Shown piece by piece: positions 1 through 55,297 of a DNA stretch of 55,495 bases. Below the pieces are notes generated by a model. It had not been told where the DNA came from. It saw only the letters and a program-made list of their open reading frames with translations, and searched no databases. The DNA lies in the IMG/VR virus record IMGVR_UViG_3300043449_001017, positions 1 to 55,495 of that record. One strand, given 5' to 3'. Positions within the stretch are counted from its first letter, which is position 1. Each line of letters opens with the position of its first letter. The position numbers and the translations under genes were made by a program. This stretch comes from a virus. Its lineage: Duplodnaviria > Caudoviricetes.

Positions 1-13
1 ATTCGAATTAACC
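1..13. repeat. 13-nt terminal direct repeat, probable cohesive end (cosN)
   Basis: ATTCGAATTAACC at 1-13 is identical to 55483-55495. On the circle it lies about 185 nt upstream of terS, with partly symmetric flanks (TCGCG/CTCGA on the - strand). Confidence 0.7.
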
Positions 14-33
14 CGCGAGGGTTTTCCCTCGGA

Positions 34-40
34 AGGACCC
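34..40 (-). other. cosQ-like packaging termination signal
   Basis: The - strand reads GGGTCCT (the lambda cosQ heptamer), 20 nt before the 13-mer and on the side opposite the terminase genes, as in lambda. Confidence 0.6.
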
Positions 41-152
41 ATAGGGTTGCAATTGAGAATCAGTTGCAACAAGGTGCCAGGCCCTCGGGCCCGGTCCGGC
101 CCTGACAGCCCTGGCCATTGCGCCATCCCACCCCAGGCAAAGGCTAGGGGTG

Positions 153-253
153 AGATACAACAAAGGGCCCGCACAATGGCAGGCCCTCAGATACAACAAA
201 GGGCCAGGGGTGAGCCTGGCCCGGATGCAACAAAGGGGGCCAGCTGGCCCCCT
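153..253 (-). terminator. Three tandem intrinsic terminator-like hairpins
   Basis: GC stems at 234-253, 201-222 and 164-187, each followed on the - strand by TT(T)GTTG(T/C)ATC. They lie directly downstream of the 278-1387 gene. Confidence 0.65.
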
Positions 254-277
254 GTGATTTGGCTGTGATGCCTGGGC

Positions 278-1387
278 TCAGGCCCAGATCAGCTCAATTG
301 ATCCGTCTGCCAGGGCCTGCGGGCCAGGGGTGGCCTGCAGGCTGAAAGGATCAGCAATGGCACGGTCGGCCCCTTTGCTCACTTTTGTGCGCAGTATCAC
401 GGCAACCCCCTGAGGCTCGAGCCAGCGATTATCAGACTCGTCTCCTGCGATCGCAGGGAGGGTGACTGTTTGGCCCTTATGGGTGAGCCTGAGGGCCACA
501 GGCCAGGCCTGGCCCTTTGCTAGCAGCACAGGGGCGGCAAGTCTGAATCCTGCCAGGGCAGCTGCCATAGCGTCTGCCACAGCTGAGGGCCTGTCAGCTG
601 CCAGGCTGGCTGTGACATCCCAGCCAGCTGCCCTTTGTGCCAGGAGGCCAGTTTTGCCCTGCAGGGGGCTTTTGGTGTAGTCGTATAGAACTACTGAGCC
701 ATCAGCCAGGGGCAGGGCCAGGGCCTGGGCCAGGTTCATAGATTCCCCTGCCACGGCCTGCAGGCCGTAACGGATCCTGAGGGCCTGGGCCTCCTGGGGG
801 CTCAGGCTGAACCGGGCCAAATGGTGGGGGTGATCATCGGTGCCCCTGAGCCTCACGGCCAAGGGCAGGCCCAGGGCCTGAGCCTTGGCATAGTGCCTGC
901 CAATGGCCCACAGGATGGCCCGTTGATACGTGGCAGGCTCAGCCAGCATGGCAAGGGTGCGCCGACCCCTGGCAGCTGCCACAGCCTGGCTCAGGCCACC
1001 ATGGCCGGCCCAGTTAAGGCAGCCCATTGCGCAGCCAGGGGTGGCCCAGGGGCATCCATTGCGGGCCAGGCCCTTTGCCAGGAGGCCCTCGGATTCTGCG
1101 AGCTCTCGCAGGGCTGGGATGAAGGCCCGAGAGGGGATGCCGGCATTCTCAGGGGTGAGGGCTGCAGCCAGGGCCTTATGGGGCAGGTGATGCAAGATCA
1201 CAGGGAGGGCCTGGGCTGAGCCCTTGGCCAGCTTGGCATTGTCATCAGTTAGCAGGCCAGGAAGGGTGAGGCTGAACCGTGCCAGGAGGGCTGCCACGTC
1301 TGCAGGCAGACGGGAGGGGGCGCACGTGCGGGCCTGGGCTGTGGTTTGAATGGCAGGCATGGAAGAAAGGGGGATAAGGGTTTGCAT
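278..1387 (-). CDS. GP88-like phage protein (Cys-cluster, radical-SAM-like motif)
   Basis: CPWATPGCAMGCL Cys cluster, RLRGTDD, LYDYTK and GDESDNRW motifs recall the phage 'gene product 88' family. GGAGG RBS precedes the ATG at 1387. Confidence 0.65.
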   Translation of the reverse strand: MQTLIPLSSMPAIQTTAQARTCAPSRLPADVAALLARFSLTLPGLLTDDNAKLAKGSAQALPVILHHLPHKALAAALTPENAGIPSRAFIPALRELAESEGLLAKGLARNGCPWATPGCAMGCLNWAGHGGLSQAVAAARGRRTLAMLAEPATYQRAILWAIGRHYAKAQALGLPLAVRLRGTDDHPHHLARFSLSPQEAQALRIRYGLQAVAGESMNLAQALALPLADGSVVLYDYTKSPLQGKTGLLAQRAAGWDVTASLAADRPSAVADAMAAALAGFRLAAPVLLAKGQAWPVALRLTHKGQTVTLPAIAGDESDNRWLEPQGVAVILRTKVSKGADRAIADPFSLQATPGPQALADGSIELIWA

Positions 1388-1415
1388 TTGCGGGCCTCCT
1401 TTATGGCTGGCCTTT

Positions 1416-1468
1416 TGTAGCCATTGGCCACAAGCTTGGCAACAAAATTCTGTAGCCATTGGCCACAA
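1416..1468. promoter_or_regulatory. Two identical 18-bp near-palindromic operator-like sites
   Basis: TGTAGCCATTGGCCACAA at 1416-1433 and 1451-1468, just upstream of the GP88-like gene. Confidence 0.55.
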
Positions 1469-1475
1469 TTTTGTG

Positions 1476-1685
1476 CTAGTGGCGATCTGAGATCAGCCAG
1501 GCCTGGCCCTGAGGCTCAGGGGGCAGCTGGCCCGATCGGATGGCCCGTCTGAGGGCCTCCTGGGCTGCCCCTTGGGCAGCGTAACGCTGCAGGATGGCTG
1601 CCAGGTCTGGCCTGCCAGGGGTGGCCCAACCTATGGGCTGGCCCTGGCTGTTTGTGACCCGTTCGAGCTCAGGCATGGGGGGCAA
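1476..1685 (-). CDS. Hypothetical protein
   Basis: 69-aa ORF, co-oriented with its neighbours. Confidence 0.5.
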   Translation of the reverse strand: MPPMPELERVTNSQGQPIGWATPGRPDLAAILQRYAAQGAAQEALRRAIRSGQLPPEPQGQAWLISDRH

Positions 1686-1863
1686 GCTTAAAAGTGTGCT
1701 CCTGGCCCTTTATACGCTGCAGGAGGGCCAGCCTACGCTCAGCCACAGCCAGTGGCCGGGCCTGGGGGATGGCAGGCTGCCATCCCTGCTGAATGCCGCG
1801 CCAGATCAGAACGATCGCCATGGGAGGGCAAGGGTAAGGGTAAGGGTTGAAAGGGTGAGAGGC

Positions 1864-2118
1864 TCAGGCCAGCACAGGCAGCACAGGGGCCAGGCTGCCA
1901 TGGCACAGGGGGGCAGGAGGCAGGGCCTCCCCAGGCAGCACAGGCCGGGCCTGGGCCCGCTGAATTGTGCTGAGGATGGCCCCAGGGCTCACAGGCTGGC
2001 CCTGGGCCTGCAGCTGCAGGGCCACAGCCTTAAAGGGGGCCAACTGAGAGGGCAGGAGGGCAAAGGATTGGGCCAGGCATGCCAGGGCCCGCTCAGTGGT
2101 GGGGGTGGGGTTTGTCAT
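1864..2118 (-). CDS. Hypothetical protein
   Basis: 84-aa ORF with an ATG start and a pyrimidine-rich leader. Confidence 0.55.
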   Translation of the reverse strand: MTNPTPTTERALACLAQSFALLPSQLAPFKAVALQLQAQGQPVSPGAILSTIQRAQARPVLPGEALPPAPLCHGSLAPVLPVLA

Positions 2119-2294
2119 AAGAGGTAAGGATCAATGCCCCTAAATACTGAGGCCCAGGCCACCCCTAGCCCAGGGCCAGTGTGCCAGTTCTGGGATTGGT
2201 CTAGTTGCCACAGGCTGGCCACCCCTCGCGAGGGTGCGGGCCTGGGGTGGCATCTCACCCCAGGCATAAGGAGGGCCACAGCCTGGCCACCCCT

Positions 2295-2371
2295 GCCGAG
2301 CAGAGCACGCCTAACCGTGGGCCGAGCAGAGCACACCTAACCGTGGGCCGAGCAGAGCACACCTAACCGTG
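2295..2371. repeat. Three tandem 26-bp direct repeats
   Basis: GCCGAGCAGAGCAC(G/A)CCTAACCGTGG at 2295, 2321 and 2347. The last copy is 25 bp. Confidence 0.95.
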
Positions 2372-2393
2372 TTGGCTGTTTGTGAAAACAAAC

Positions 2394-2479
2394 AAGCAGC
2401 GCTGTTTAATTCAATGCAAACAGCGCTGATAAAAACAATAAAACAGAACGGTTTGTATTAGTTACAAACAGCACTGTTT
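2394..2479. repeat. Four imperfect 14-bp palindromes AAACAGCGCTGTTT at about 24-bp period
   Basis: AAGCAGCGCTGTTT 2394, AAACAGCGCTGATA 2418, AAACAGAACGGTTT 2441, AAACAGCACTGTTT 2466. Confidence 0.8.
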
Positions 2480-2495
2480 TAGTTGTTTATACAAA

Positions 2496-2560
2496 TAGTA
2501 CAAATGTACCAGTAGTACAAATGTACTATAGTACAAATGTACTATAGGACAAATGTACTA
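2496..2560. promoter_or_regulatory. Array of four cyanobacterial-type LexA (SOS) boxes
   Basis: TAGTACAAATGTACCA 2496, TAGTACAAATGTACTA 2513 and 2529, TAGGACAAATGTACTA 2545. The first three match the cyanobacterial LexA consensus RGTAC-N3-DGTWCB and the fourth has one mismatch. Confidence 0.8.
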
Positions 2561-2580
2561 ATTAAGAATTTGACGTGCAA
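2552..2580 (-). promoter_or_regulatory. Sigma70-like promoter overlapped by a LexA box
   Basis: The - strand reads TTGCAC (2580-2575), N17, TACATT (2557-2552). The -10 lies inside box 4. Confidence 0.55.
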
Positions 2581-2626
2581 TAGGCGGGGCGCTAAAACCG
2601 ACCCCGCCGTGTATGTGAATACCCCT

Positions 2627-2707
2627 TAAAAACCGGCCCTTCGCAAGTCCCTGGCCCTAAAAACCGGCACCCCGCAAGTCCCTAAGAACCGGCCGGCCGC
2701 AAGTCCC
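2627..2707. repeat. Three 25-bp direct repeats
   Basis: TAA(A/G)AACCGGC-N4-CGCAAGTCCC at 2627, 2658 and 2683, preceded by the hairpin GGCGGGG..CCCCGCC (2583-2608). Confidence 0.9.
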
Positions 2708-2864
2708 CAGGGCACAGCTCTTCCCACACCTCGAGCAGCTCGTGATCGTCAGCTGCCATCAGATCGTCGCGAGCTTGCAGCATCTGGTCTTCGAAAATGT
2801 CGCCGCGCTTGAGCATGGCCGCCACCAGGGAGGCCACAAGCTGTATCCGTTCGTCGTGGGTCAT
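2682..2864 (-). CDS. Hypothetical protein (60 aa)
   Basis: MTHDERIQL start overlaps the upstream stop (ATGA). Confidence 0.6.
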   Translation of the reverse strand: MTHDERIQLVASLVAAMLKRGDIFEDQMLQARDDLMAADDHELLEVWEELCPGDLRPAGS

Positions 2865-3061
2865 TTTCCGATCAGTCGGTTCCATTCGTCTGGGCACCTG
2901 TCGTTGCATTCCTGGCGCAGCTCGGTGTTGTTCATACCGGCCAGCCAGGCTTCGGTCTCGCCGATCTGGCTGTCGGTAATGTCGCCCACCTCCAGCATTG
3001 CGTCCAGCATGCTGTCGATGACGCGGGCCCTGTCGGCCCTGGTGATATAGGTGCTGCCCAT
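2861..3061 (-). CDS. Hypothetical protein
   Basis: 66 aa, with coupled start/stop overlaps on both sides. Confidence 0.65.
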   Translation of the reverse strand: MGSTYITRADRARVIDSMLDAMLEVGDITDSQIGETEAWLAGMNNTELRQECNDRCPDEWNRLIGK

Positions 3062-3393
3062 CAGACCAGCCCCAGCAGGCGCAGCCAGGAATCATCGGCA
3101 TCGGGCTCGATGATGTCGCCGGCAGGTGTCTCGCACACGCTGTCGAATGTCCAGCGCTCAACATCCTCCATTGCGGGCACCGGCCACCACTTGGAGTGCC
3201 AGCGCAGCTTGAGCACCTGGCTGCCATCGCCCTTGCGGGTGAAGCGGCCCACGGCGCCATCACGCAGGAGCTTCTGCACCGTGCCATCGGGCAGGGTGAC
3301 TTTCTTCACCAGATCCTGAGGCACCAGGATGTCATCGCCTTTGCGGCGGATGTTGACGGTGGCTGGAAACTGGTCGGCTTCTGTGATTTTCAT
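3061..3393 (-). CDS. Hypothetical protein
   Basis: 110 aa, C-terminal DSVCETPxGDxIEPD motif, coupled to the next gene. Confidence 0.7.
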   Translation of the reverse strand: MKITEADQFPATVNIRRKGDDILVPQDLVKKVTLPDGTVQKLLRDGAVGRFTRKGDGSQVLKLRWHSKWWPVPAMEDVERWTFDSVCETPAGDIIEPDADDSWLRLLGLV

Positions 3394-3464
3394 GATCAGA
3401 TAAGTGTTAATGGGACTCCCCGAGGGTAGGCGGGGGACTCCCCGAATGCCCTCGGTCGTTACAT

Positions 3465-3911
3465 TCAGTAATGATCTGGGCTGCCTACGTAGTTGAAGTC
3501 AGTGGGGTCTGGCTCAAAGGGAAGATCAAGCTGGCGCAGGTCCGTGTGGACCCAGCCTTGCTTGGGCACGAACACGTAGGCGTGCTCGCAGCCGCACTCC
3601 TGGAAATGATCGAGCAGGCCCTGGATCTCGGTGAACTCCTTTGGGGCCACCACAGCAGGCACCTCGCCACGATCGGCGTAGTAGAGCGGGCCCGACTCAG
3701 GAAGAGTTTCGCGATCCCAGCCCAGGTTGGTGTGGAGAGCACTGATGTCGCCGCCAGCCACCAACTCCTGCGCAGCCTCATGGCTGTCGTGGTGCGCCAG
3801 CAGCAGGGGTAGCTGATGACTGGGGTAGCCGTCGTAGTGGCAGTAAACAGCCAGGTAGCAGGGCTTGCGGGCAGTGCCGGTGCGGACGGCAATGACAGAG
3901 CGGGTGGCCAT
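3465..3911 (-). CDS. Conserved phage hypothetical protein
   Basis: MATRS.I...VYCHYDGYP motif typical of a widespread phage family. Confidence 0.75.
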   Translation of the reverse strand: MATRSVIAVRTGTARKPCYLAVYCHYDGYPSHQLPLLLAHHDSHEAAQELVAGGDISALHTNLGWDRETLPESGPLYYADRGEVPAVVAPKEFTEIQGLLDHFQECGCEHAYVFVPKQGWVHTDLRQLDLPFEPDPTDFNYVGSPDHY

Positions 3912-3915
3912 CGGA

Positions 3916-4143
3916 TCAATTGATAACGAGAACGGGAGCGGCGCAGCCATTGGCCAGCAGCTGATCAGCCAGGCGCTCGGCATCTTCGAGCACCATCAGG
4001 TAGTCCGTGGGCAGTGGCTGGTAGCCGATGCTGTTGAGGTCGTTGCCGAGGGCGAAGCCTTCGGTGTGCCAGCCGGCCGTGTGCAGGGCCTTGATCACGC
4101 TGGCGGTGTAGTCGCGGACTTGGTTGAGGTTCACGGGAGGCAA
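3916..4143 (-). CDS. Hypothetical protein
   Basis: 75-aa ORF in operon context. The start is uncertain. Confidence 0.55.
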   Translation of the reverse strand: MPPVNLNQVRDYTASVIKALHTAGWHTEGFALGNDLNSIGYQPLPTDYLMVLEDAERLADQLLANGCAAPVLVIN

Positions 4144-4363
4144 GCGATAAAGGCGGCTCGTTGGCCGATGAGAGAAGAATACGCGACCGCCGGACCGCAG
4201 CAGCCGCGCTTGTTACAGATCGAAACAATCAGCGCCGGAAGGGCACGACCTTCCGATCTAGGCGGTGAGCCAGTACCTCGAGCCGGCGGATCCGACTGGA
4301 CTGGCGCAGGCTGTAGGCCACATGGGCGGCCAGGCAGAGGACAAGGGCAGCAGAGAGCATGGA

Positions 4364-4699
4364 TCAGTAGCGAATGGTCACAGGGGCAATGCCGTCGACG
4401 GGGACGCCCAGGGCGACCGCTGCACCGGCAGAGAGATCAATCCGAGGAGAGCAGGCGCAGCGATCAGTGATGGGCACCACCAGCGACCTGCCAGCGTGGC
4501 GGATGGTCACCTTGGTGCCACAGGGCAGCCAGGCGTGGGCGGCGCTGATGCCCCAGTGGTCATAGCGCTGGCCGCAAGCCGTGCGCCCGCCGTGGTAGCT
4601 CGGGTGGTAGACGCTGGCGACGGTGCGCTCAGGGGTAGCGTGGGCCGCTCCGGCTTGCAGCGTGAGCAGGCCGGCAAACAGGAAGTGTCGAAGACTCAT
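4364..4699 (-). CDS. RlpA-like double-psi beta-barrel (lytic transglycosylase-like) secreted protein
   Basis: Signal peptide plus ASVY...GRTACG.YD..ISAAH..LPCGTKV...ITDR...IDLS motifs. Confidence 0.85.
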   Translation of the reverse strand: MSLRHFLFAGLLTLQAGAAHATPERTVASVYHPSYHGGRTACGQRYDHWGISAAHAWLPCGTKVTIRHAGRSLVVPITDRCACSPRIDLSAGAAVALGVPVDGIAPVTIRY

Positions 4700-4724
4700 A
4701 AATCAGAACAGAATTCAGCAACCC

Positions 4725-4946
4725 TTAGCGACTGAAGCGAACGCAATAGTCGCCTTGGGTGTACCAGCCAATGGGACAATCCCGGCTGGTTTTCTTCACC
4801 GCTGGTTGTTGCGTGGTGGAGAATGGCACACAATAGCCATATTGCGTGTAGTAACCGATCGGGCATTGCCCCTGCTTTTGCACAGGTTGCTGCGCAAAGG
4901 CTGGAACACCTGCAAGCAATAGCAGTGCCGTAGCGAGTTTTGTCAT
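4725..4946 (-). CDS. Small secreted Cys-repeat protein
   Basis: Signal peptide plus two CPIG(Y/W)YTQxxYCV repeats. Confidence 0.7.
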   Translation of the reverse strand: MTKLATALLLLAGVPAFAQQPVQKQGQCPIGYYTQYGYCVPFSTTQQPAVKKTSRDCPIGWYTQGDYCVRFSR

Positions 4947-5284
4947 GGCTTCACACTGAATGCGACATAGCTTGTGGGGCGGTCGGTGGCAACGCCTTCG
5001 GCCTGCTCGTCGAGCTGCAGCTGGCGTAGGCGCAGGGCGACGGCATCGGCATGGCCGCTGTAGCTCCAGTTGTGACGCACCTTGCGGGTGGCGCGGAACT
5101 GGCCCAGCTCGATGCGGTCAAGGCCCTGGCGGTGCATGTGCTCAAGCAGCGAGGCCCGCAGGGGTGACAGCTGGGCCTCGAGGCGCTGGATCTCGTCCTG
5201 GAGGCGCTGGGCACGGCGAAGCTTGATGCCGATAGAGCCAGCAGCGCTGTAGGAACGCAAGCGGCGAGCAGTGATAACGGTCAT
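4943..5284 (-). CDS. Hypothetical coiled-coil protein
   Basis: 113 aa from MTVIT, overlapping the next start. Confidence 0.6.
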   Translation of the reverse strand: MTVITARRLRSYSAAGSIGIKLRRAQRLQDEIQRLEAQLSPLRASLLEHMHRQGLDRIELGQFRATRKVRHNWSYSGHADAVALRLRQLQLDEQAEGVATDRPTSYVAFSVKP

Positions 5285-5373
5285 GATGCGCAGGTGGTTT
5301 GCTGAACGCCCAGGAACCGTACAGGCCCGCCGGACTCCCGGAACTGGCGCTGCAACAAACCGCAACATCAAGC

Positions 5374-5562
5374 TCACCGCGAGCGGCGACCGCTGAGCCT
5401 GCGCTCGATCGTCTCCAGCGCCAGGTGAAGAAAAGCCGGTATGGCTCGGGCCCCAGTTTCCCAGCGGGCGACCGTGACACGGTCAATGCCGAGCTTGTCG
5501 GCCAGCTCCTGCTGGGTCAGCTGCAGGCGCTCACGGAGCGCGACGAGGTCTTGCTGTGTCAT
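5374..5562 (-). CDS. XRE-family helix-turn-helix protein
   Basis: LRERLQLTQQELADKLGIDRVTVARWETG. No peptidase domain. Confidence 0.9.
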   Translation of the reverse strand: MTQQDLVALRERLQLTQQELADKLGIDRVTVARWETGARAIPAFLHLALETIERRLSGRRSR

Positions 5563-5593
5563 GCGCCATCTGTAACCGATGGCAACGCAGCCG

Positions 5594-6373
5594 TCAACGG
5601 CCGCCCATCACGTCCTTGAGTTTGCCGAACACCAGCTTGGGGAACTGCTCCTGGGCGATCCGATCAGTCAGGCCGTAGAAGTCGTAACGGGTCGACACCG
5701 TAGGCGGCGAAGGCAGGTACTTGAACAGCATGTTGATGTCGCGGCCGGAGCGCCGGTAGATGCCAGGCTTCAAGCCTTTTGCATTACCAGGCTTCGCCAT
5801 GAAGTATTCCTTCTTGGGCTTACGCTTGGCCTGAGCGTATCGACGACCGGTGTAGGTATCGTTATCGTATGCGCCGATAGAGAACAGCACTTGCGTATAT
5901 TGGCCTGGCGAGATCCTGCCCTTGGACAATCGAGCCGCGTCACTGTCTGTGATTCCGAGCATATACGAGCCACGCGGTGTGTAACCACGGTGCGCTAAAG
6001 CTTTCGAAAAACGTGTGTCATAAACCGGCTTGCCCCCAGCCCCTTGCTCTTTTACGGTCGGGTAAAGATACTTCGATGCGGGGTTGCCTTTGGCGCCAAA
6101 TTCTTTGACGCCGATGTAGCTGTAGAGCTTGGTTTTATCGGACCGCGTGTAGAAGATTGAGTTCAGGGTGAAAGGCACTGGGTTCTCAAATACCCGCTCC
6201 ATCTCCTGCCGGTGGGCAGCCTGCAGTAGCGGCCCCATCTGATTGAGCGCGTAGCTCATCACGAAGGGCATCTGAACCCGGCGAATGACATCCAGGTTCT
6301 TCACCACAGCATCAGCGTCAAAGGTGATCGACCCTTGCCGCCAGCTACCAGAACCGGACCACTCAATCGCCAT
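5594..6373 (-). CDS. Phage protein, possibly neck/tail-completion (gpZ/HK97-gp10-like)
   Basis: 259 aa, basic, with A..ALN...F.NP.PFTLNS motifs. The function is an inference. Confidence 0.5.
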   Translation of the reverse strand: MAIEWSGSGSWRQGSITFDADAVVKNLDVIRRVQMPFVMSYALNQMGPLLQAAHRQEMERVFENPVPFTLNSIFYTRSDKTKLYSYIGVKEFGAKGNPASKYLYPTVKEQGAGGKPVYDTRFSKALAHRGYTPRGSYMLGITDSDAARLSKGRISPGQYTQVLFSIGAYDNDTYTGRRYAQAKRKPKKEYFMAKPGNAKGLKPGIYRRSGRDINMLFKYLPSPPTVSTRYDFYGLTDRIAQEQFPKLVFGKLKDVMGGR

Positions 6374-6470
6374 GGCGGCCTCCTACAGAAAGACCCAGCG
6401 ATGTCACGCGCTGGGTCTGGTGCCTGTCAACGATCCGAGTCTACGAGCGAAAGCCGCATACCCGCCAGTC

Positions 6471-6683
6471 TCAGGTGCGTCTCACATTGCGGGCGTCGTC
6501 GCAGTAGACGGTCCGCTGCTCCTTGCCCAGCCAGATGGCCCCACGAGCGCCCTGGAGGCCGTCCCAGGTGCCTGAGGCCCATCCGTAGCCCATAAACACC
6601 TTGCAGGCGGTTCCACGGGGCCAGGAGGGCCAGCTGGTGGGGCTCCTGGCTAGGCGCTGGTGATCAGGGGTGGGCTTGGGCAT
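6471..6683 (-). CDS. Hypothetical protein
   Basis: 70-aa ORF in operon context. Confidence 0.55.
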   Translation of the reverse strand: MPKPTPDHQRLARSPTSWPSWPRGTACKVFMGYGWASGTWDGLQGARGAIWLGKEQRTVYCDDARNVRRT

Positions 6684-6686
6684 GGC

Positions 6687-6977
6687 TCAGCGCACCCGGA
6701 CACAGATCAGGCGACTGGACGGTTCACCCTCGGCCCGCTCGACGTGGCGCACCGAGAACTTCCAGTCCAGGTGCCGGCGTTCGGCCCAGCCGCTTCCGCA
6801 CAGGCGAATGCCGTCAGCCCTCCGATGGCCCACCGCGTTGACGAAGAAGTAGTCGCCGACCTCCATGGCTGCAAAGGGGTACTTGGTGGAGCCGTGAAGG
6901 TCGGTGGAGAACGGGTCGATAAGCGAGTGCTCGCGACCAGGGGGAAGGCTCAACATCGAACGCAGTAAGACCAGCAC
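6687..6977 (-). CDS. Small phage protein, probably DNA-binding
   Basis: KYPFAAMEVGDYFFV...FSVR motif. The start is uncertain. Confidence 0.6.
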   Translation of the reverse strand: MLVLLRSMLSLPPGREHSLIDPFSTDLHGSTKYPFAAMEVGDYFFVNAVGHRRADGIRLCGSGWAERRHLDWKFSVRHVERAEGEPSSRLICVRVR

Positions 6978-7007
6978 AGACGCTAAGACAGGCAGGCCCC
7001 AGGAGGC

Positions 7008-7252
7008 TGTAACGCCCTGTAACGCGGACCGTTACAGCCAAATCCCAGTCAGGGCCTGGCTTGTAACGTAGTAACCTTTGTAACAAGAAATTTATTTTAT
7101 TAGGGAGGGGGTTCTGAGAGGGGGTCTGGGGGCTCTGGGGCTAAGAGTCTCTTTAAAAGTTTCTCCTGAGAAAACGTTACACGTTACCGAAACGCCAAAA
7201 CCCAGTCATACCAACGGGTTTCGGCGTAACGGGCACCGTTACTTTGTAACGG
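7008..7252. other. Candidate replication origin
   Basis: About 11 GTAAC/GTTAC pentamers in direct and inverted arrangement around an AT tract (7088-7102), directly downstream of the primase-helicase. Confidence 0.55.
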
Positions 7253-7261
7253 TCGGCGGTC

Positions 7262-11797: not shown

Positions 11798-11949
11798 GGT
11801 CTTGACCGCAGTGGTCAGCAATGGATAGATCGAAAAACCGAGCAATCATAAGCACTTAACCGGGACGTTCCGTGAAGTGCGAAGAAACATGACAGGAGAA
11901 CAGGAAGGTGCGTGAACTAGCGGTAAGCTTGCGTCCACAAGCACCACAG

Positions 11950-12777
11950 ATGCCTATGGGGCTCACCAACGCCGAGTACCACGCACACCCGGCGGTCTCT
12001 AAAAGCGGACTGGATTTGGTGCGGCGTTCGCCGCTGCACTACTGGAACCGCTACCTCAATCCCAACAGGGTGATTGAGCCGCCGACACCAGCGATGGTGC
12101 TGGGTTCGGCCTTGCATGCACGGGTGCTCGAGCCCCACGTCTACGACGACGAGTACATCGTGGCGCCGGAGGGGATCGACCGCCGCACCAAGGAGGGCAA
12201 GCTCCGATGGGCAGACTTCGAGGCAGAGTCAGAGGGCAGGATCGCGCTCAAGGCCGAGGATGCTGCCCATATTGAGGGCATGGCAGCAGCGGTGCATGCT
12301 CACCCTGCGGCTAGCGCCATCCTGCGGCTGCCAGGCAAGTGCGAGCAGTCCTACTTCTGGACCGACCCTGAGACTGGCATCGAATGCAAGTGCCGGCCTG
12401 ACTGGCATAGTGACGACCGCCGACTGATTGCCGATGTAAAGACCACCGAGGACGCCAGCCCTTCTGGCTTTAGCAGATCCGTCATCAAGTATCGGTATTA
12501 CGTTCAGGCTGCGTTTTACCAGCAGGGAATCACTGCCGAGCAGTTTGTATTTTTGGCAGTCGAGAAAAAGCCTCCGTATGCAGTTGGCGTGTACGTCACG
12601 CCACTCCCTGCCATCGAGCGCGGATTCCGAGATGCCATGGAGGATCTGCGACGGATCGCCACATGCAGGGCTGCGAATGAGTGGCCGGCCTATGGCGACG
12701 AGATCCAGTCCCTGCGACTTCCGTCATGGTTCAGTGATGAATCAGACGAGCCAACTCATGAAATTGAAGGTTTCTAA
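11950..12777 (+). CDS. RecE/exonuclease VIII-like PD-(D/E)XK nuclease
   Basis: YHAHPAVSKSGL, GSALHA..LEP, KCRPDW, DVKTT and Y..QAAFY. Confidence 0.88.
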   Translation: MPMGLTNAEYHAHPAVSKSGLDLVRRSPLHYWNRYLNPNRVIEPPTPAMVLGSALHARVLEPHVYDDEYIVAPEGIDRRTKEGKLRWADFEAESEGRIALKAEDAAHIEGMAAAVHAHPAASAILRLPGKCEQSYFWTDPETGIECKCRPDWHSDDRRLIADVKTTEDASPSGFSRSVIKYRYYVQAAFYQQGITAEQFVFLAVEKKPPYAVGVYVTPLPAIERGFRDAMEDLRRIATCRAANEWPAYGDEIQSLRLPSWFSDESDEPTHEIEGF

Positions 12778-13463
12778 TGACCGCATCTGACAATCAGATT
12801 GTTATACAATCAGGCGCCCAAAATCAGGGCAGCCTGACTGCACAATCGGGAGGCGTGTTCGCCGGCATTCAACAGTTCGAGAACGCGCAAAGAATTGCCA
12901 AAGCTTTAGCGTCATCGGCCCTAGTACCAAAGGACTACCAAGGGCAGAGCGGACTCGCGAACGTACTCGTTGCGATGGAGATCGCTGGACGAATGAGTCT
13001 TTCGCCCTTGCAGGTCATGCAGAACCTCCACATTATTCACGGGCGCCCTAGTTGGTCGTCGCAGTTCATCATTGCGATGGTTAACGGCTGTGGGCGATTT
13101 TCCCCGTTGGACTATGAGATGACCGGCGAGGGTGAATCGCTTGCGTGCTATGCCTTTGCCAAAGAGCTAAGCACAGACAAGGTTTTGAAGGGGCCAACCG
13201 TCAGCATGGCGATGGCCAAAAGGGAGGGATGGGCGACAAAGTCAGGATCTAAATGGCAAACCATGCCGGAGCTTATGGTCCGGTATCGCGCCGCAGCGTT
13301 TTGGGGCCGCCTCTATGTCCCTGAGTTCTTGGTTGGCATGAAGACACAAGAAGAAGTGATCGACATTGAACCTGTCGACGTGACTGAACAGCCAACAGTG
13401 GTGAATGAACTGAATCAAATGATTCAGGAAAGTAAGGGACAGTCGGATGACGCAGTCTGGTAA
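12777..13463 (+). CDS. RecT/Red-beta-like single-strand annealing protein
   Basis: SALVPKDYQG, PLQVMQNL.IIHGRPSWSS and KWQTMPELM.RYRAA. Coupled to the RecE-like gene. Confidence 0.75.
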   Translation: MTASDNQIVIQSGAQNQGSLTAQSGGVFAGIQQFENAQRIAKALASSALVPKDYQGQSGLANVLVAMEIAGRMSLSPLQVMQNLHIIHGRPSWSSQFIIAMVNGCGRFSPLDYEMTGEGESLACYAFAKELSTDKVLKGPTVSMAMAKREGWATKSGSKWQTMPELMVRYRAAAFWGRLYVPEFLVGMKTQEEVIDIEPVDVTEQPTVVNELNQMIQESKGQSDDAVW

Positions 13464-13662
13464 TTACTTGACGCCACAGGAGCTGGCGCAACGCTGGCGT
13501 AATGTGGTGTCCCTCTCGACCCTGGACAACTGGCGCAGCCAGCAGAAGGGGCCGAGATGGTTCAAAGCCGGAGGACGGGTGCTTTACCCGTTCAACGAGG
13601 TCATCCAATTCGAGCAGCGCAACATGCGCGGCTTCCCCAACACCCCCAATACCGAGCGATGA
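13447..13662 (+). CDS. Excisionase-like HTH protein
   Basis: YLTPQELAQRW..VSLSTLDNWR...GP..FK.GGRVLY. Confidence 0.8.
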   Translation: MTQSGNYLTPQELAQRWRNVVSLSTLDNWRSQQKGPRWFKAGGRVLYPFNEVIQFEQRNMRGFPNTPNTER

Positions 13663-13910: not shown

Positions 13911-13918
13911 GATCAACC

Positions 13919-14398: not shown

Positions 14399-14435
14399 TC
14401 ATCCACGGGCCCGGCTTCGGTCGGGCCTCGAACCT

Positions 14436-14933: not shown

Positions 14934-15005
14934 CGAATTGCAACAACAGTCGCCTGCGAGGTCGGCTGGTTGCTTTGATAGGCCAGCCACAACGGAGTTA
15001 CGACC

Positions 15006-15487: not shown

Positions 15488-15489
15488 GC

Positions 15490-17584: not shown

Positions 17585-17605
17585 CCCTCTCCACTTAGAA
17601 GGCAG

Positions 17606-22555: not shown

Positions 22556-22562
22556 GTGAGCG

Positions 22563-23672
22563 ATGAAGCGGTGGGAAAGCGACTCGTCGGTGCCAGGGCT
22601 AGGTGTCATGGTGCTGCCGTCCGGCGTTCGCACCTGGTATTTGCGCTATCGCGAGCCGGACGGAAAGCAGCAAACGCAGAAAATCGGCCGCGACGGCATC
22701 ATCAACAAAACGATCGCCAGAAAGCAGGCGGTGCAGATCCTGGCCGAAGTCGCCAAAGGCAATGCGCCAGCGACGGCTCGCAAGCAGCGCCTGAATGCAC
22801 CAAAAATGATCGAGCTACAGGCTCGGATGGAGAAGGAACACTACGCCACGCTGCGCCAAAAGACCGCCTCCAACTACGAGCAAATCTGGCGCCTTCATGT
22901 CGCACCAACGCTCGGCTCCAGTCGGGTGCGCGATGTCACTCGTGAGCAGGTGATCCAGATGCTCAGCAAGCTGGCACCAGTGCAGCGAAACCGTGTGCTG
23001 CAGTGCCTCAAGGCGGCATTCACCATGGCCGAGGTATGGGGCTTGCGCCCTGAAGGCACCAACCCCTGCCGAAAAATCTCCAAGACCCCTGAGCGAATCC
23101 GCACTCGCTACCTCGCCGACCCCGAACGGGCCCGACTACTGGCATCGCTTGACGCTATGGGCACCACGCCACTTCGGTGGCGATTTGCGCAGCTCGTGCG
23201 CCTCCTGATGCTCACCGGCTGCCGTGTGGGCGAGATCTGCCGTGGTCGCTGGGAATGGCTTGACGACGATTTTCGGCTGATGGTGATACCAGCAGAGCGG
23301 CACAAGACGGGTGAGCGAACAGGCGAGCAGCGCGTGGTGCATGTTCCTCCTGCAGCAGCTCGCATCTTGAAGGAACTGCGGCAGCAATCCCATTCGCCTT
23401 GGATCATTGCTGGCGACGGCGAGAAGCACCTGGTGGGCTACCAAAAACTTTGGCTGGAGCTGCTGCGCACGGCCAAGATCGACAATCTGAAGGTTCACGA
23501 TCTGCGGCACAACTTTGCTTCTGTGGCACTGACCAAGGCCGGACTGACACTGCCCCAGGTCGGCAGTCTCCTCGGCCATGCAAGCCCCTCAACAACAAAG
23601 CGCTACGCCCACCTCATCGACGAGGGAGCGCAGCGGATGGTTGCAGACGTAGCTGGGAAAATTGGGCTCTAA
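22563..23672 (+). CDS. int: Tyrosine integrase
   Basis: N-terminal arm-binding domain, TGCR, HDLRH and LLGH...T.RY catalytic motifs. Confidence 0.95.
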   Translation: MKRWESDSSVPGLGVMVLPSGVRTWYLRYREPDGKQQTQKIGRDGIINKTIARKQAVQILAEVAKGNAPATARKQRLNAPKMIELQARMEKEHYATLRQKTASNYEQIWRLHVAPTLGSSRVRDVTREQVIQMLSKLAPVQRNRVLQCLKAAFTMAEVWGLRPEGTNPCRKISKTPERIRTRYLADPERARLLASLDAMGTTPLRWRFAQLVRLLMLTGCRVGEICRGRWEWLDDDFRLMVIPAERHKTGERTGEQRVVHVPPAAARILKELRQQSHSPWIIAGDGEKHLVGYQKLWLELLRTAKIDNLKVHDLRHNFASVALTKAGLTLPQVGSLLGHASPSTTKRYAHLIDEGAQRMVADVAGKIGL

Positions 23673-52911: not shown

Positions 52912-54765
52912 TCACCACTGGCGGACAAAACTCCGTTTTGGAGCCTTGTTCGATCTTAGCGGGGCCTTGCGCTCGGCTTCTACGGGCTTTTCTAGCCTTT
53001 TTTCCAGCTGATCCCACATTGTTCTGCGGTCGTACCGCTGGTACATGCGATTTAACGCTGCATACGCATACACAAGCTCGTCCAGCGCTTCATTTCTCTG
53101 ACTCGACTTCTTGACCCAGACCCTCTCGGGGTAGCCGCGCACAAATCGCGTGATCTGCTTCTCGGCCGTCAACTCTTCGAAATACTCGAGCCCGGCCTGG
53201 GCATAGAAGTGCAAAAATCCTGGACCTGGTTCATTGTGCTTCAGCCGGCCAAACAGCAGGCTTTTCACCGTGTCGCCACCCACCGGATAGACCTCAGCGC
53301 CTTTCTTCAGGGCCTTGCCCTTGTAATTCAAGTCCACCTTGGTGGGCTTACCAATCGGCGGCTTGCCCTTCTGGCTCTGACCTTTCACGGCAATCACGCC
53401 TAGGTTCTGCCGCTCGCGGGCGTACTGGTACACCTCCATCGTGTGGTGGCCGCCAGAGTCGATGCAGACCACATCTGGCCGCAACTCGCAGCCAAGCGCA
53501 TGTGGAAACGGCCGTGTCACGACCTCGTCAAGCTGCTTCCATGGCTCGGGCCTGCTCGGATCGCCATGAATCACAACCCTGTCGACCAGCCAGCCTTCCT
53601 CCTCGCGGCCCCACGCCCAGACGCTGAGACTGAGGCGGTTGTCCTGCACGTCGCATCCAATCGTCAGGGCCGACGCTTCGGCAGGGACCAGCCTGGGCTC
53701 GTATAGCTCGGCCCGCTCGAGCAGGCTGTCGGCGCCGACCTTTGCGGCATAGTCGTCTTCCCAGCTTTCGCCGAGCACGGTGTTTACGAATGTCTTGAGC
53801 GCCTCGGCGTCATTCTTGGCCTCGAGGAACTCGTCTTTCAGGTTGTCCCAGCTTGCATTCGGGCTGTAGCTGTATGCCGCCCAGATGTGAAAGCTGACGT
53901 GCTTGCCATTGCCAGGAGTCGTCGGGCGCCACTCACCGCGCTCAACCATCCATCGCTTCTTCGAGTGTGGAATAAAAACGCCACAGCTCTCGCAGACGTA
54001 GTGAACCGGGTCGGTCGGTTCATTCCATCGCATCCCGCTCCATTTCAGGTACTGCATGTGCCCGCAGTCGGGGCACGGCACGAAGTAACGACGCTGGTCG
54101 CCTTGTTGAAACAGTCTTTCGATGCGACTGGCATCCTTCAGCGTCGGTGTGCTGCCAGCGATGATCTTGCGATTCCAGTAATACTCCGTTCGGCGGATGC
54201 CCAGCTTGATCTGGTCGCCCTCAGGGCCGGCGCTCGGTGGATAGCCGTCTGTCTCGTCAAACATCACGATCCGGCGGCTGACACGACGAAAGCCACGCGG
54301 ACTGTTGGCACCCACCAGGCCGAGCGTTCCACCCGGATACTGCTTCTGCAGGATGGTGTTGGCGCCGTCCTTGGCCTTGCTGTCACTCACCAGGCCGCGC
54401 AGCACCGGCACATCCCTGAGCATCGGTGCGATCTCTTCCTTTGAGTAGCCCTGGGCGTCCTCAATGGTGGGCAGCACCAGCATCATCGGGCAGGGATCTT
54501 GGTGGATGTGAAATGCGATGCAGGCATTCAGGATCTTGGTGTACCCGACACGAGCAGATTTCATCACCGACACCTGCTCCACCCTTGGATCGGTGACGGC
54601 ATCCATGATCCCCTTCTGGTAGGGGAGCGTGTGCCAGCGGCCAGCCTCAGCGCTGCTCTCGGCCGACAGTGCAAAGTGCTTGTCTGCCCACTCGCTTAGC
54701 GAGAGCTTCTCGGGCGGCTTCCATGCGCGGAGTGCCGAGCTGGCGATGTCCTCAACTGTCGCCAT
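52912..54765 (-). CDS. terL: Terminase large subunit (lambda gpA family)
   Basis: KSARVGYT, FDETDGYP, GSTPT, CPDCG, DVQ, DSGG and RNEALD. Confidence 0.96.
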   Translation of the reverse strand: MATVEDIASSALRAWKPPEKLSLSEWADKHFALSAESSAEAGRWHTLPYQKGIMDAVTDPRVEQVSVMKSARVGYTKILNACIAFHIHQDPCPMMLVLPTIEDAQGYSKEEIAPMLRDVPVLRGLVSDSKAKDGANTILQKQYPGGTLGLVGANSPRGFRRVSRRIVMFDETDGYPPSAGPEGDQIKLGIRRTEYYWNRKIIAGSTPTLKDASRIERLFQQGDQRRYFVPCPDCGHMQYLKWSGMRWNEPTDPVHYVCESCGVFIPHSKKRWMVERGEWRPTTPGNGKHVSFHIWAAYSYSPNASWDNLKDEFLEAKNDAEALKTFVNTVLGESWEDDYAAKVGADSLLERAELYEPRLVPAEASALTIGCDVQDNRLSLSVWAWGREEEGWLVDRVVIHGDPSRPEPWKQLDEVVTRPFPHALGCELRPDVVCIDSGGHHTMEVYQYARERQNLGVIAVKGQSQKGKPPIGKPTKVDLNYKGKALKKGAEVYPVGGDTVKSLLFGRLKHNEPGPGFLHFYAQAGLEYFEELTAEKQITRFVRGYPERVWVKKSSQRNEALDELVYAYAALNRMYQRYDRRTMWDQLEKRLEKPVEAERKAPLRSNKAPKRSFVRQW

Positions 54766-55297
54766 ACTCCTCGGCCAGTTCCTCGAGGGCTTCACGCACG
54801 ATGTCTTCGAGCACCACCACCTGATCCTGCGTCAGGTCTGGGATGCGCTGCTTTGCCTTGCTTGGGATTCCCAGCACCTTGGTGCGACTGATGGTGATGA
54901 CCTCAACCCACTTTGCCTGCACCTCAGCCGCTCGGACCAGCAGCCCTTCCTTTTCCTTGCGCTCCAGCTCGAGCAGCTCGGCCTTCAGGTACTCGGTGCG
55001 GGCACGCGATTCGTTGTAGTCAGGGACAATGTCCCCTGGCTCGGGGTCAGTGAGTGGTCGGTCTCGTTTGGGTCGCTCTGGAGGAAAGGCGCTCTCGCCC
55101 ATCGGGGGCTTGGGACCGATGCCGACTTTTTGCATCGTGTTGGCAGCCCAGTGCTCGCGTAGCGTCTCGCTGTCGATCAGCTCTTGCCCGTCTCTGGTCC
55201 GAACGACCGGGACGCGACCTTCCTTGACCGCTTTGTAGACGGCCTGGCGTGTCACCCCGAGGACTCGGCCAGCTTCTGCCTTGGTGATGAGTGGCAT
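54752..55297 (-). CDS. terS: Terminase small subunit (Nu1-like)
   Basis: N-terminal wHTH (AGRVLGVTRQAVYKA) and ARTE..KA...ELE....G.LV. Confidence 0.9.
   Translation of the reverse strand: MPLITKAEAGRVLGVTRQAVYKAVKEGRVPVVRTRDGQELIDSETLREHWAANTMQKVGIGPKPPMGESAFPPERPKRDRPLTDPEPGDIVPDYNESRARTEYLKAELLELERKEKEGLLVRAAEVQAKWVEVITISRTKVLGIPSKAKQRIPDLTQDQVVVLEDIVREALEELAEEYGDS

What the first reader, a model, noticed from the sequence alone, without database searches (positions are those of the whole stretch)
2496..2580. Four abutting host LexA boxes covering a leftward promoter in a temperate phage with no recognisable CI
Seen: four 16-bp TAGTACA-AA-TGTACTA palindromes (two perfect) packed into 65 bp. 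A - strand TTGCAC-N17-TACATT promoter has its -10 in box 4 and its start region under the other boxes. Known: this matches the cyanobacterial LexA consensus RGTAC-N3-DGTWCB, and some phages (GIL01, 186 tum, CTXphi) are wired to host LexA, usually through one or two sites. Seen: the only XRE protein is 62 aa with no S24 cleavage domain. Inference: host LexA acts as the induction switch for the terminal leader, or the array titrates LexA or forms a protein roadblock on incoming DNA.
Basis: partly seen in the sequence, partly recalled or inferred. Interest (0 to 1): 0.9.

Follow-up and report, generated by a model that had tools for sequence, protein, structure and literature searches.

The report
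Host LexA-box array in a cyanophage
This uncultured freshwater cyanophage carries four back-to-back copies of the DNA site that its likely host's DNA-damage repressor LexA is predicted to bind, ahead of a gene block that leads into the packaging genes, and similar arrays occur in unrelated cyanophage lineages, so these viruses probably read the host's damage signal directly.

Summary
Four 16-bp palindromes lie at 2496-2560: two are perfect and two have one mismatch. No other site with up to 2 mismatches occurs in the 55.5-kb phage.

The motif equals the published Prochlorococcus LexA consensus TAGTACA-N2-TGTACTA. [quoted passage not shown]

Tail-fibre and gene-content comparisons point to a Synechococcus-type host. 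The genome has no S24 peptidase domain, no LexA DNA-binding domain, and only one XRE helix-turn-helix (62 aa).

New here: arrays of 2-9 such boxes occur in 84 IMG/VR stretches, against 7 for a reversed control pattern.
- They occur in relatives of this siphovirus and in P-SSP7-like podoviruses.
- One complete podovirus shares only two detectable proteins with this phage, which argues for a host binder.
- In the siphovirus group the array always follows a gpZ-like gene and precedes a GP88-like gene and terS.

Best reading (about 0.55): a LexA operator array gating a leftward promoter.

Binding, transcription and the host genome could not be tested. Whether LexA is the whole induction switch is unproven, because one complete array-bearing relative lacks a tyrosine integrase.

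Earlier notes of this scan describe LexA-type arrays in other phages, for example e1-3670310.

The parts
2496..2511 (.). Box 1, TAGTACAAATGTACCA (1 mismatch to TAGTACA-N2-TGTACTA)
2513..2528 (.). Box 2, perfect TAGTACAAATGTACTA
2529..2544 (.). Box 3, perfect, abuts box 2
2545..2560 (.). Box 4, TAGGACAAATGTACTA. The same AGGAC variant is listed for a Prochlorococcus NATL lexA site in Li et al. Table 1.
2552..2580 (-). Candidate promoter a: TTGCAC (2580-2575), 17 nt, TACATT (2557-2552). The -10 lies inside box 4. This is an inference from the sequence only.
   Evidence: A -10-like TAnnnT in the first box is kept in L115, G002 and L094. The -35 is not conserved.
2525..2552 (-). Candidate promoter b: TTGTCC-16-TATAGT, built from box 4 and the box 3/2 junction
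   Evidence: 1 site found against 0.5 expected in shuffles.
2584..2609 (-). GC-rich hairpin just upstream of the promoter candidates. It may terminate the early-left unit.
   Evidence: -19 kcal/mol, z -1.6, 19 of 200 shuffles fold as well; a hairpin is kept in 5 relatives and 5 of 9 pairs show a double change. The terminator scan did not call it.
2624..2708 (.). Three copies of a ~29-nt unit (AAAACCGGCC..GCAAGTCCC). The unit stays next to the box array in all architecture types.
2393..2487 (.). AAACAGCGCTGTTT-type palindromes between the boxes and the first gene. They are specific to this phage subtype.
2300..2377 (.). 3 x 26-nt tandem repeat (CACCTAACCGTG core). The contig of relative G001 breaks inside its own, longer copy.
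1864..2118 (-). orf84, the first sizeable ORF downstream of the array. It matches no family and varies between close relatives.
1476..1685 (-). orf69 (phrog_14769, unknown function)
278..1468 (-). GP88-like protein (PF17338) with three invariant Cys and a weak radical-SAM-like fold. It is the conserved cargo downstream of arrays.
54752..55297 (-). Small terminase gene. In relatives G001 and L010 it follows the GP88-like gene directly, so across the joined ends the unit runs into the late genes.
5594..6373 (-). gpZ-like 'minor tail protein' (phrog_1924). It always lies upstream of the array in the siphovirus group.
5374..5562 (-). The only XRE helix-turn-helix protein (62 aa)
22563..23672 (+). 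Tyrosine integrase

Best explanation
The four boxes are high-affinity binding sites for the LexA repressor of a picocyanobacterial host (Synechococcus/Cyanobium type).

They sit directly after a conserved hairpin that ends the early-left genes. They cover the -10 and the first ~50 nt of a leftward promoter. That promoter heads the unit orf84 - orf69 - GP88-like gene. Once the cos ends are joined, or in a prophage, the unit continues into terS, terL and the structural genes.

In an undamaged cell LexA dimers fill the abutting boxes and keep this unit shut. After DNA damage, RecA-stimulated self-cleavage of LexA frees it.

Shown: the motif identity, the array, its conservation and its fixed place in the gene order.
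Inferred: LexA binding, the promoter, and the repression.

My odds:
- LexA is the binder: about 0.8.
- The array works as a promoter operator: about 0.6-0.65.
- Both together: about 0.55.
For: 1. Motif. Boxes 2 and 3 equal TAGTACA-N2-TGTACTA. [quoted passage not shown] They also fit AGTACWNWTGTACT of Li et al. 14 of 14.

2. Host.
- The tail fibre hits 34 phage records. 32 of them are Synechococcus phages or cyanophages.
- Many proteins are shared with Synechococcus phages S-LBS1 and S-H1: 11 of the 34 marker genes each, and more ORF-level hits.

3. No phage candidate for the binder.
- The record has no PF01726, no PF00717, one HTH_3 and no Phd/YefM.
- XRE62 is not detected in G003, G004 or G005, which have perfect boxes.

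4. A host-factor signature.
- 84 IMG/VR stretches hold at least 2 perfect-half-site boxes within 24 nt. The reversed control pattern gives 7.
- GC content of these stretches ranges from 0.335 to 0.636.
- Of the 80 loci analysed, 35 are most like this phage, 21 most like P-SSP7, 2 most like S-H1, and 22 match none.
- G007, a complete P-SSP7-like genome, shares only an HNH and a lysozyme fragment with the window. G008 shares nothing at E<=1e-4.
- The half-sites are fixed while the 4-nt centre varies, with A at position 7 in 65% and T at position 10 in 74%.

5. Place in the gene order.
- The array is downstream of the gpZ-like gene in 13 of 13 loci.
- It is upstream of terS in 6 of 6.
- The nearest box is upstream of the GP88-like gene in 16 of 19.
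- All perfect boxes of G007, G008, G009 and G011 lie in one cluster per genome.

6. Architecture. A hairpin, then ~20 nt, then 4 boxes at 16/16/17 spacing is kept in the window, L115, G002 and L094. Promoter-like hexamers overlap the boxes.
Against: - No binding data exist, and no RNA run holds the sequence, so nothing could be learned about transcription.
- The host genome is unknown.
- The only genome-bin link is a 17-kb contig in a MAG labelled Gammaproteobacteria. That MAG's own lexA carries CTGTATAAAAAAACAG. It has no AGTAC-N4-GTACT outside the phage contig. If that bin were the true host, the LexA reading would fail. I judge it a mis-binned phage contig, but I did not prove this.
- 0 of 4 cultured cyanophages checked (S-LBS1, S-H1, P-SSP7, S-CBS4) carry an array.
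- The promoter scan gives 1 site against 0.5 expected.
- The hairpin is not significant on its own.
- In podovirus L063 the last box lies upstream of the strongest sigma-70-like promoters by my reading of the sequence printed. Another consensus-like promoter there has a box just downstream.
- Some of the 84 arrays (G008, G010, G011) have a T..A centre that departs from the LexA consensus. 22 of the 80 loci show no link to known cyanophages. Part of that set may be something else.
Confidence: 0.55

Rival explanations
1. LexA is the phage's master lysogeny repressor, as in GIL01. With no CI, LexA bound to the array is what keeps the prophage silent, and its cleavage is the whole induction switch.
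For: - An integrase is present.
- No S24 domain and only one small XRE are found in six frames.
- 20 further small ORFs gave no repressor family in Pfam.
- The array heads the unit that runs into the late genes.
- GIL01 shows that such wiring exists (PMC4551915).
Against: - No box (up to 2 mismatches) lies at the divergent early region 11845-11908 or anywhere else in the genome. Replication and recombination genes would therefore be left unrepressed.
- G003 is complete by CheckV and has boxes but no Phage_integrase domain.
- Arrays also occur in P-SSP7-like podoviruses.
- A repressor without a known family cannot be excluded. Another note of this scan (e1-6295966) reports a recurring 17-bp site at early promoters; I did not test it.
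Confidence: 0.2
2. The boxes are LexA sites but not a promoter operator. The array soaks up LexA from replicating phage DNA and so switches on the host SOS regulon, or it builds a protein-DNA structure near the genome end, such as a roadblock, end marking, or help for packaging or replication.
For: - There are 2-9 consensus-grade sites per array.
- Arrays sit near genome ends. They are 2.5 kb from the left end here (the ends share a 13-mer). They are about 100 nt from the end in G003. In podoviruses they lie between terL and the early genes.
- The array sits among other repeat families. In relatives it sits beside Fur-box-like palindromes, like a panel of host-factor sites.
Against: - The fixed position right after a hairpin and ahead of a gene unit, with the genes transcribed away from it, fits an operator.
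- Each box carries a -10-like TACATT on the transcribed strand.
- Nothing here measures titration.
Confidence: 0.15
3. A phage-encoded dimeric protein, not LexA, binds the boxes. The binder would be a LexA mimic or an unrecognised regulator, and the resemblance to the host SOS box would be mimicry or chance.
For: - The GP88-like gene travels with the array in 19 of 80 loci, and the gpZ-like gene in 13.
- Earlier notes of this scan found look-alike palindrome arrays that were judged to be read by phage or antitoxin proteins (e1-722175, e1-5346842).
Against: - G007 and G008 share no candidate DNA-binding protein with the window.
- The GP88-like protein looks like an enzyme. It has three invariant Cys, and radical-SAM enzymes fill the top rows at Z 4.7-6.7.
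- The gpZ-like protein resembles a tail-completion protein.
- No LexA-like, S24 or Phd/YefM domain is found.
- The boxes lack the TGTACA hexamer of YefM-type operators.
- A chance match to all 14 specified positions of the host consensus is unlikely.
Confidence: 0.1
4. The boxes are a terminase (cosB-like) or replication-origin repeat.
For: - The array lies in a multi-repeat, locally AT-rich intergenic block.
- It is near cos in G003, and 214 nt upstream of terS in L096.
Against: - In the window the array lies 2.5 kb from the end and on the far side from terS. The 198 nt between terS and the right end hold no box.
- terS proteins of array-bearing phages are only 24-84% identical, and podoviruses use other packaging systems, yet the half-sites are identical.
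- Palindromes are not typical iterons.
Confidence: 0.05

Closest known systems
Picocyanobacterial LexA operator (TAGTACA-N2-TGTACTA, Kolowrat et al. 2010; AGTACWNWTGTACT, Li et al. 2010; RGTACNNNDGTWCB, Mazon et al. 2004 as cited by Li)
   Same: The sequence is identical in all 14 specified positions for boxes 2 and 3. Box 4's AGGAC variant is listed for a Prochlorococcus NATL lexA site.
   Different: Li et al.'s Table 1, as far as one search showed it, lists one predicted site for most transcription units and gives no arrays. Here four sites abut at 16-17 nt on phage DNA. Binding is untested.
SOS operon of coliphage 186 (LexA-repressed p95 driving the antirepressor Tum, near the right genome end). 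Recalled, not read here.
   Same: Both are temperate phages without a self-cleaving repressor. In both, a LexA site sits at the promoter of a small unit close to a cos end and transcribed towards it.
   Different: 186 has one box, by recall. No Tum-like or other antirepressor family was found in orf84 or orf69. Here the unit carries a GP88-like enzyme and seems to run on into terS.
Tectivirus GIL01 promoter P1 (dinBox1 + dinBox1b, LexA plus phage gp7; PMC4551915, passages read)
   Same: Host LexA is used in place of a CI. More than one LexA site lies just downstream of the start site.
   Different: GIL01 has one full site and one half-site, and they control replication and immunity genes. Here there are four full sites downstream of the replication genes. 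A gp7-like helper was not looked for.
Overlapping double SOS boxes of colicin operons (recalled)
   Same: Abutting or overlapping LexA sites give very tight repression of a lethal function.
   Different: Colicin operons have two boxes on plasmids of enterobacteria. This array has four, and up to nine in relatives.

Membership tests
Cyanobacterial LexA operator | Sequence fits the published consensus | tested here: met
   Boxes 2 and 3 equal TAGTACA-N2-TGTACTA. They fit AGTACWNWTGTACT 14/14. RGTACNNNDGTWCB matches boxes 1-3.
Cyanobacterial LexA operator | The host is a cyanobacterium that encodes a cleavable LexA | not testable with these tools
   The host genome is not held. A cyanobacterial host is inferred from the tail fibre and shared genes. 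Conserved LexA cleavage motifs in Prochlorococcus MED4 come from PMC2921402.
Cyanobacterial LexA operator | The same motif stands before host SOS genes | tested here: inconclusive
   The literature says yes. In my own scan, 0 of 117 metagenome stretches holding the exact 16-mer had a RecA or LexA homologue nearby.
Cyanobacterial LexA operator | LexA binds it | not testable with these tools
   Needs EMSA, footprinting or ChIP.
Cyanobacterial LexA operator | Overlaps a promoter | tested here: inconclusive
   Two sigma-70-like candidates overlap the boxes. The -35 is not conserved. No RNA data are available.
LexA-controlled antirepressor operon (186 tum type) | A recognisable antirepressor gene downstream of the box | tested here: inconclusive
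   orf84 matched no family in Pfam, PHROGs or NCBIfam. orf69 matched only phrog_14769, of unknown function. Small antirepressors often have no family.
LexA-controlled antirepressor operon (186 tum type) | A non-cleavable phage repressor at the early promoters | tested here: inconclusive
   None was identified. The genome has one XRE of 62 aa, an AP2-domain protein and an RpoA-CTD-like protein.
GIL01-type control (LexA as main repressor) | No phage CI or S24 repressor | tested here: met
GIL01-type control (LexA as main repressor) | LexA sites at the promoter of the replication or immunity genes | tested here: not met
   The boxes lie downstream of the helicase, primase and XRE genes. No box is found at 11845-11908.
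cosB / terminase small-subunit site array | Lies between the cos cut and terS | tested here: not met
   The array is 2.5 kb from the left end. terS is at the right end, 198 nt from it, and that stretch has no box.
Phd/YefM-type antitoxin operator array | TGTACA core hexamers and an antitoxin gene | tested here: not met
   The boxes contain no TGTACA. PF02604 is absent in six frames. HEPN/MNT genes were not searched for.

The most novel reading that the evidence does not exclude
A portable array of host LexA operators, often travelling with a GP88-like, radical-SAM-like gene, is shared by unrelated cyanophage lineages: lambda-like siphoviruses, S-CBS4-like siphoviruses and P-SSP7-like podoviruses. 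It serves as their CI-independent switch. Host LexA itself would be the repressor that decides whether, or when, these phages proceed. That would explain why integrase-bearing cyanophages have no recognisable repressor, and it would tie phage development to daily UV damage in picocyanobacteria.
Probability: 0.2. Interest if true: 0.9.

Novelty: new variant of a known kind. Interest (0 to 1): 0.7.

Why it matters
How cyanophages of Prochlorococcus, Synechococcus and Cyanobium choose between killing, waiting and lysogeny is an open question. Many carry integrases but no recognisable repressor.

A conserved array of consensus LexA sites at a fixed control point makes a concrete hypothesis testable: these phages read the host SOS state directly. 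The array is present in at least three phage lineages and in phages of very different GC content.

It also offers a simple sequence marker (two or more TAGTAC-N4-GTACTA boxes within about 40 nt) for finding such control hubs in metagenomes. The GP88-like enzyme stands out as the conserved regulated cargo.

Tried and rejected
Host identification
- A genome-contig scan for the double box gave one contig, in a Gammaproteobacteria-labelled MAG. I read it as mis-binning because it is nearly the same phage as IMG/VR record G002.
- The int-flanking DNA gave no attB-like match in that MAG, and that stretch is coding anyway.
- No tRNA and no Rfam family was found in the window.
- Integrase homologues and their cluster members carried no organism names.
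- Sequencing runs: 7 DNA holders in 3 studies, labelled freshwater metagenome or metagenome. No RNA holder was listed, so nothing was laid.
- DNA of 1-8000 has no match in named phages, and the GP88-like protein has none either.

Other nulls
0 had a RecA or LexA homologue. 15 of the 117 were related to the reference phages.
- GP88-like fold: Foldseek against PDB gave nothing at E<=0.001. The VIA-align rows are all under Z 8, so 'radical-SAM-like' is only a lead.
- The gpZ-like protein gave no PDB sequence match below E 0.08.
- G008 DNA has no match in named phages.
- NtcA (GTA-N8-TAC) was considered for the boxes and rejected, because the spacing is N6.

Literature
- No paper describing LexA boxes in cyanophages was found in searches. 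These cover CC-licensed PMC plus bioRxiv only.
- Supplementary files were not opened. The additional files of Li et al. 2010 may list more picocyanobacterial sites.

Papers: what I saw
- PMC3091678, PMC3744912, PMC2921402 and PMC4551915: passages by 'find'.
- PMC3121763, PMC6182141 and PMC11511902: search listing and abstract only.
- Recalled, not read: Mazon 2004, coliphage 186 Tum, colicin double boxes, lambda cosB and gpZ, the E. coli Fur-box consensus.
Full report
WHAT IS THERE

The window is a complete (CheckV 100%), linear IMG/VR virus record of 55,495 bp. Positions 2496-2560 hold four copies of a 16-bp palindrome:
- box 1, TAGTACAAATGTACCA (one mismatch);
- boxes 2 and 3, TAGTACAAATGTACTA (perfect);
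- box 4, TAGGACAAATGTACTA (one mismatch).

Start-to-start spacing is 17, 16 and 16 nt. Allowing 3 mismatches, the window has 9 strand-matches. Eight of them are these boxes, against 0.03 expected, and 0 of 100 shuffles reach 9. No other site with up to 2 mismatches exists in the genome.

The boxes are one of four different repeat families packed into 2300-2710. This is the least GC-rich kilobase of the genome's left end.

GENOME CONTEXT

- All genes from 11845 down to 278 are on the minus strand. In order they are a helicase, a VRR-NUC nuclease, a primase-helicase, a gpZ-like 'minor tail protein', a 62-aa XRE, a Gp157-like protein, a DPBB protein, small ORFs, the repeat block, orf84, orf69 and a GP88-like protein.
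- The plus-strand arm 11908-23672 carries RecE/RecT-like proteins, SSB, an AP2-domain protein, an RpoA-CTD-like protein, a dNMP kinase and a tyrosine integrase.
- The rest, 55297 down to 23956, is the minus-strand structural arm. It starts with terS and terL.
- The two ends share a 13-mer, as another note of this scan said.
- In relatives whose contigs are cut elsewhere (G001, L010), the GP88-like gene is followed directly by terS, terL and portal on the same strand.

With the ends joined, the repeat block therefore stands at the head of a unit that runs through orf84, orf69 and GP88-like into the late genes.

WHAT THE MOTIF IS

Kolowrat et al. [quoted passage not shown] Boxes 2 and 3 match it at every specified position.

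Li et al. 2010 give AGTACWNWTGTACT from 48 predicted sites. Their table lists AGGACAAATGTACT, the core of box 4, for a Prochlorococcus NATL lexA gene. The Anabaena pattern RGTACNNNDGTWCB matches boxes 1-3.

WHO THE HOST IS

- No host genome is held.
- The tail fibre (29779-33072) finds 34 phage records. 32 of them are Synechococcus phages or cyanophages of sipho-, podo- and myovirus types.
- Many proteins are shared with Synechococcus phages S-LBS1 and S-H1: 11 of the 34 marker genes each, and more ORF-level hits. With S-LBS1 these include portal (54% identity), capsid (55%) and the fibre C-terminus (57%).
- The DNA occurs in freshwater metagenome runs.

Against this, the only hit in 185,579 species genomes is a 17-kb contig binned into a MAG labelled Gammaproteobacteria. 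That contig is nearly the same phage as IMG/VR record G002. The MAG's own lexA is preceded by CTGTATAAAAAAACAG, the enterobacterial type of SOS box. The MAG has no AGTAC-N4-GTACT outside the phage contig. I take the contig to be mis-binned. If it were not, the LexA reading would fall.

IS THERE A PHAGE-ENCODED BINDER?

- Six-frame searches of the record find no LexA DNA-binding domain, no S24 peptidase, no Phd/YefM antitoxin, and a single HTH_3, which is the 62-aa XRE.
- Twenty further small ORFs gave no repressor family.
- XRE62 is not detected in G003, G004 and G005, which have perfect boxes. The AP2 protein is detected only in G001 among those five records.

THE WIDER PICTURE

A scan of IMG/VR for two boxes with perfect half-sites within 24 nt found 84 stretches. 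The same pattern read backwards found 7.

In the 80 loci analysed:
- GC runs from 0.335 to 0.636.
- Arrays have 2 (39), 3 (25), 4 (23) or 5-9 (6) boxes.
- The commonest spacings are 16 (44 cases), 17 (12), 32 (15) and 37-39 nt (34).
- The 4-nt centre varies while favouring A at position 7 (65%) and T at position 10 (74%).

By protein similarity, 35 loci are closest to this phage, 21 to the T7-like Prochlorococcus podovirus P-SSP7, 2 to S-H1, and 22 to none of the four references. L063 is 72% identical in DNA to P-SSP7 over 55% of the query. G009 has a small match to Synechococcus siphovirus S-CBS4.

Two complete genomes were compared with the window in full. G007 (podovirus, 44 kb) shares only an HNH endonuclease and a lysozyme fragment. 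G008 shares nothing at E<=1e-4.

Identical half-sites in phages that share no DNA-binding protein and differ by 30 points of GC are what a conserved host protein would produce. They are not what a phage repressor would produce. This is the strongest new argument for LexA.

Limits of this argument:
- Some arrays (G008, G010, G011) have a T..A centre off the LexA consensus.
- 22 loci have no known affiliation.
- None of four cultured cyanophages checked has an array.

WHERE ARRAYS SIT

In the siphovirus group the order is fixed:
- The array lies downstream of the gpZ-like gene in 13 of 13 loci. In seven of these (L005, L048, L075, L083, L106, L118, L121) the gap is only 156-284 nt.
- It lies upstream of terS in 6 of 6.
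- The nearest box is upstream of the GP88-like gene in 16 of 19. By eye, two of the three exceptions, L066 and L113, also have their multi-box array upstream. L068 has a single box upstream.

In G003 there are two places. A single box follows the gpZ-like gene, between the same GGGACTTGC..GGTCGGTTTATAGGG repeats and an AT-rich iteron field. A two-box array follows a terminator-like hairpin about 100 nt from the genome end, ahead of terS.

In P-SSP7-like podoviruses, 3-10 boxes fill the gap between terL and the early genes: methyltransferase, MarR-like gene, integrase and RNA polymerase.

In each of G007, G008, G009 and G011 all perfect boxes lie in one cluster.

LOCAL ANATOMY AND MECHANISM

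Read on the minus strand, the window shows these elements in order:
1. three GGGACTTGCG..CCGGTTTTTAGGG units;
2. a GC-rich hairpin (2609-2584);
3. TTGCAC, a 17-nt spacer, and TACATT inside box 4;
4. boxes 3, 2 and 1;
5. phage-subtype-specific palindromes and tandem repeats;
6. orf84.

The same layout recurs in L115, G002 and L094: a hairpin, about 20 nt, four boxes at 16/16/17, and TTTGTAtAAAgATCTaAAACAGTGCTGTTTG. Five relatives keep a hairpin, with double changes in 5 of 9 pairs. Alone the hairpin is not significant, and the terminator scan did not call it.

Every box read on this strand carries TACATT, a TAnnnT -10-like hexamer. Abutting boxes also create TTGTAC-16-TATAGT, which is the one promoter the scan lists (1 found, 0.5 expected).

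My reading is as follows. A leftward start lies within or just after box 4. LexA dimers on four abutting sites block RNA polymerase at the -10 and along the first ~50 nt. They release it when LexA is cleaved. This step is inference, because no RNA run holds the sequence.

WHAT IS UNDER CONTROL

- orf84 and orf69 match no informative family. The first ORF differs between close relatives.
- The GP88-like protein (PF17338) is the conserved cargo. Fifteen homologues share three invariant cysteines (C139, C146, C150) and a GD..D.R motif.
- The model is confident (pLDDT 83.5, pTM 0.81). Foldseek finds nothing.
- The exhaustive aligner puts radical-SAM enzymes in nearly all of its top 23 rows, but only at Z 4.7-6.7. 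This is a lead, no more.

IS LEXA THE INDUCTION SWITCH?

The phage is temperate by its integrase and has no S24 repressor, so SOS input through LexA is plausible. The nearest known designs are the LexA-repressed tum operon of coliphage 186 (recalled) and the GIL01 P1 promoter.

Three observations argue that the array is a more general 'read the host's damage state' device than a prophage switch:
- No box guards the early divergent region.
- G003 has boxes but no tyrosine integrase.
- Podoviruses carry arrays.

I put the GIL01-like 'LexA is the master repressor' reading at about 0.2. A decoy or architectural role stands at about 0.15, a phage-encoded binder at about 0.1, and a packaging or origin repeat at about 0.05.

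NOVELTY

Phages wired to host LexA are known. I found no paper on LexA boxes in cyanophages in five searches. These searches cover CC-licensed PMC and bioRxiv only.

Earlier AI notes of this scan report LexA-type arrays in a Microcystis phage (e1-3670310) and an actinophage (e1-6002304), and a Fur-box panel in a Microcystis phage (e1-5998855). They are unchecked by me, and they show the scan has met this kind of thing before.

I class the finding as a new variant of a known kind. It has a fairly high interest because it is conserved, cross-lineage and directly testable.

Noticed in passing
window 1-13 and 55483-55495: Both ends carry the same 13-mer, ATTCGAATTAACC. This fits filled-in cohesive ends. 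The end of contig L007 also reads ..GATTCGAAC.
   Followed up: partly
L065 12480-12600; L119 1-60 and 220-250; L066 2080-2120: Close relatives carry GATAATGAGAATCATTCTCAA-type palindromes beside their LexA-type boxes. These resemble the classical Fur box as I recall it. The intergenic block may be a panel of sites for several host regulators.
   Followed up: no
window 278-1468: The GP88-like protein has three invariant Cys (139, 146, 150) with C-x6-C-x3-C spacing. Its best structural rows are radical-SAM enzymes at Z 4.7-6.7. It travels with box arrays in both siphovirus and podovirus backgrounds.
   Followed up: partly
window 2624-2708; L035 16130-16205; L010 470-540: The repeat unit GGGACTTGCG..GGTCGGTTT(T)ATAGGG occurs in 2-3 copies. 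It is kept next to the boxes in all three siphovirus architecture types, even where everything else in the block differs. Its binder or role is unknown.
   Followed up: no
window 5594-6373: A gpZ-like 'minor tail protein' (phrog_1924) sits among early genes, far from the tail genes. It is present in all six array-bearing relatives that cover the region. It is absent from the box-less phages S-LBS1 and S-H1.
   Followed up: partly
whole window: GTAC is under-represented: 86 sites against about 195 expected from base composition, and 7 of the 86 lie in the array.
   Followed up: no
L019 (G006 contig C653): A 17-kb phage contig, nearly identical to IMG/VR record G002, is binned in a MAG labelled Gammaproteobacteria. 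That MAG's own lexA has an enterobacterial-type SOS box. This is probably a binning error.
   Followed up: partly
window 19760-20149 and 15490-15756: A free RpoA C-terminal-domain-like protein (PF03118, E 3e-6) and an 88-aa AP2-domain protein are the only other nucleic-acid-binding candidates in the early arm.
   Followed up: no
L063 12800-13497: In a P-SSP7-like podovirus, six boxes are interleaved with consensus-grade sigma-70 promoters (TTGACA-18-TATAAT and TTGACT-17-TATAAT). They lie in the terminal region ahead of the early genes.
   Followed up: partly
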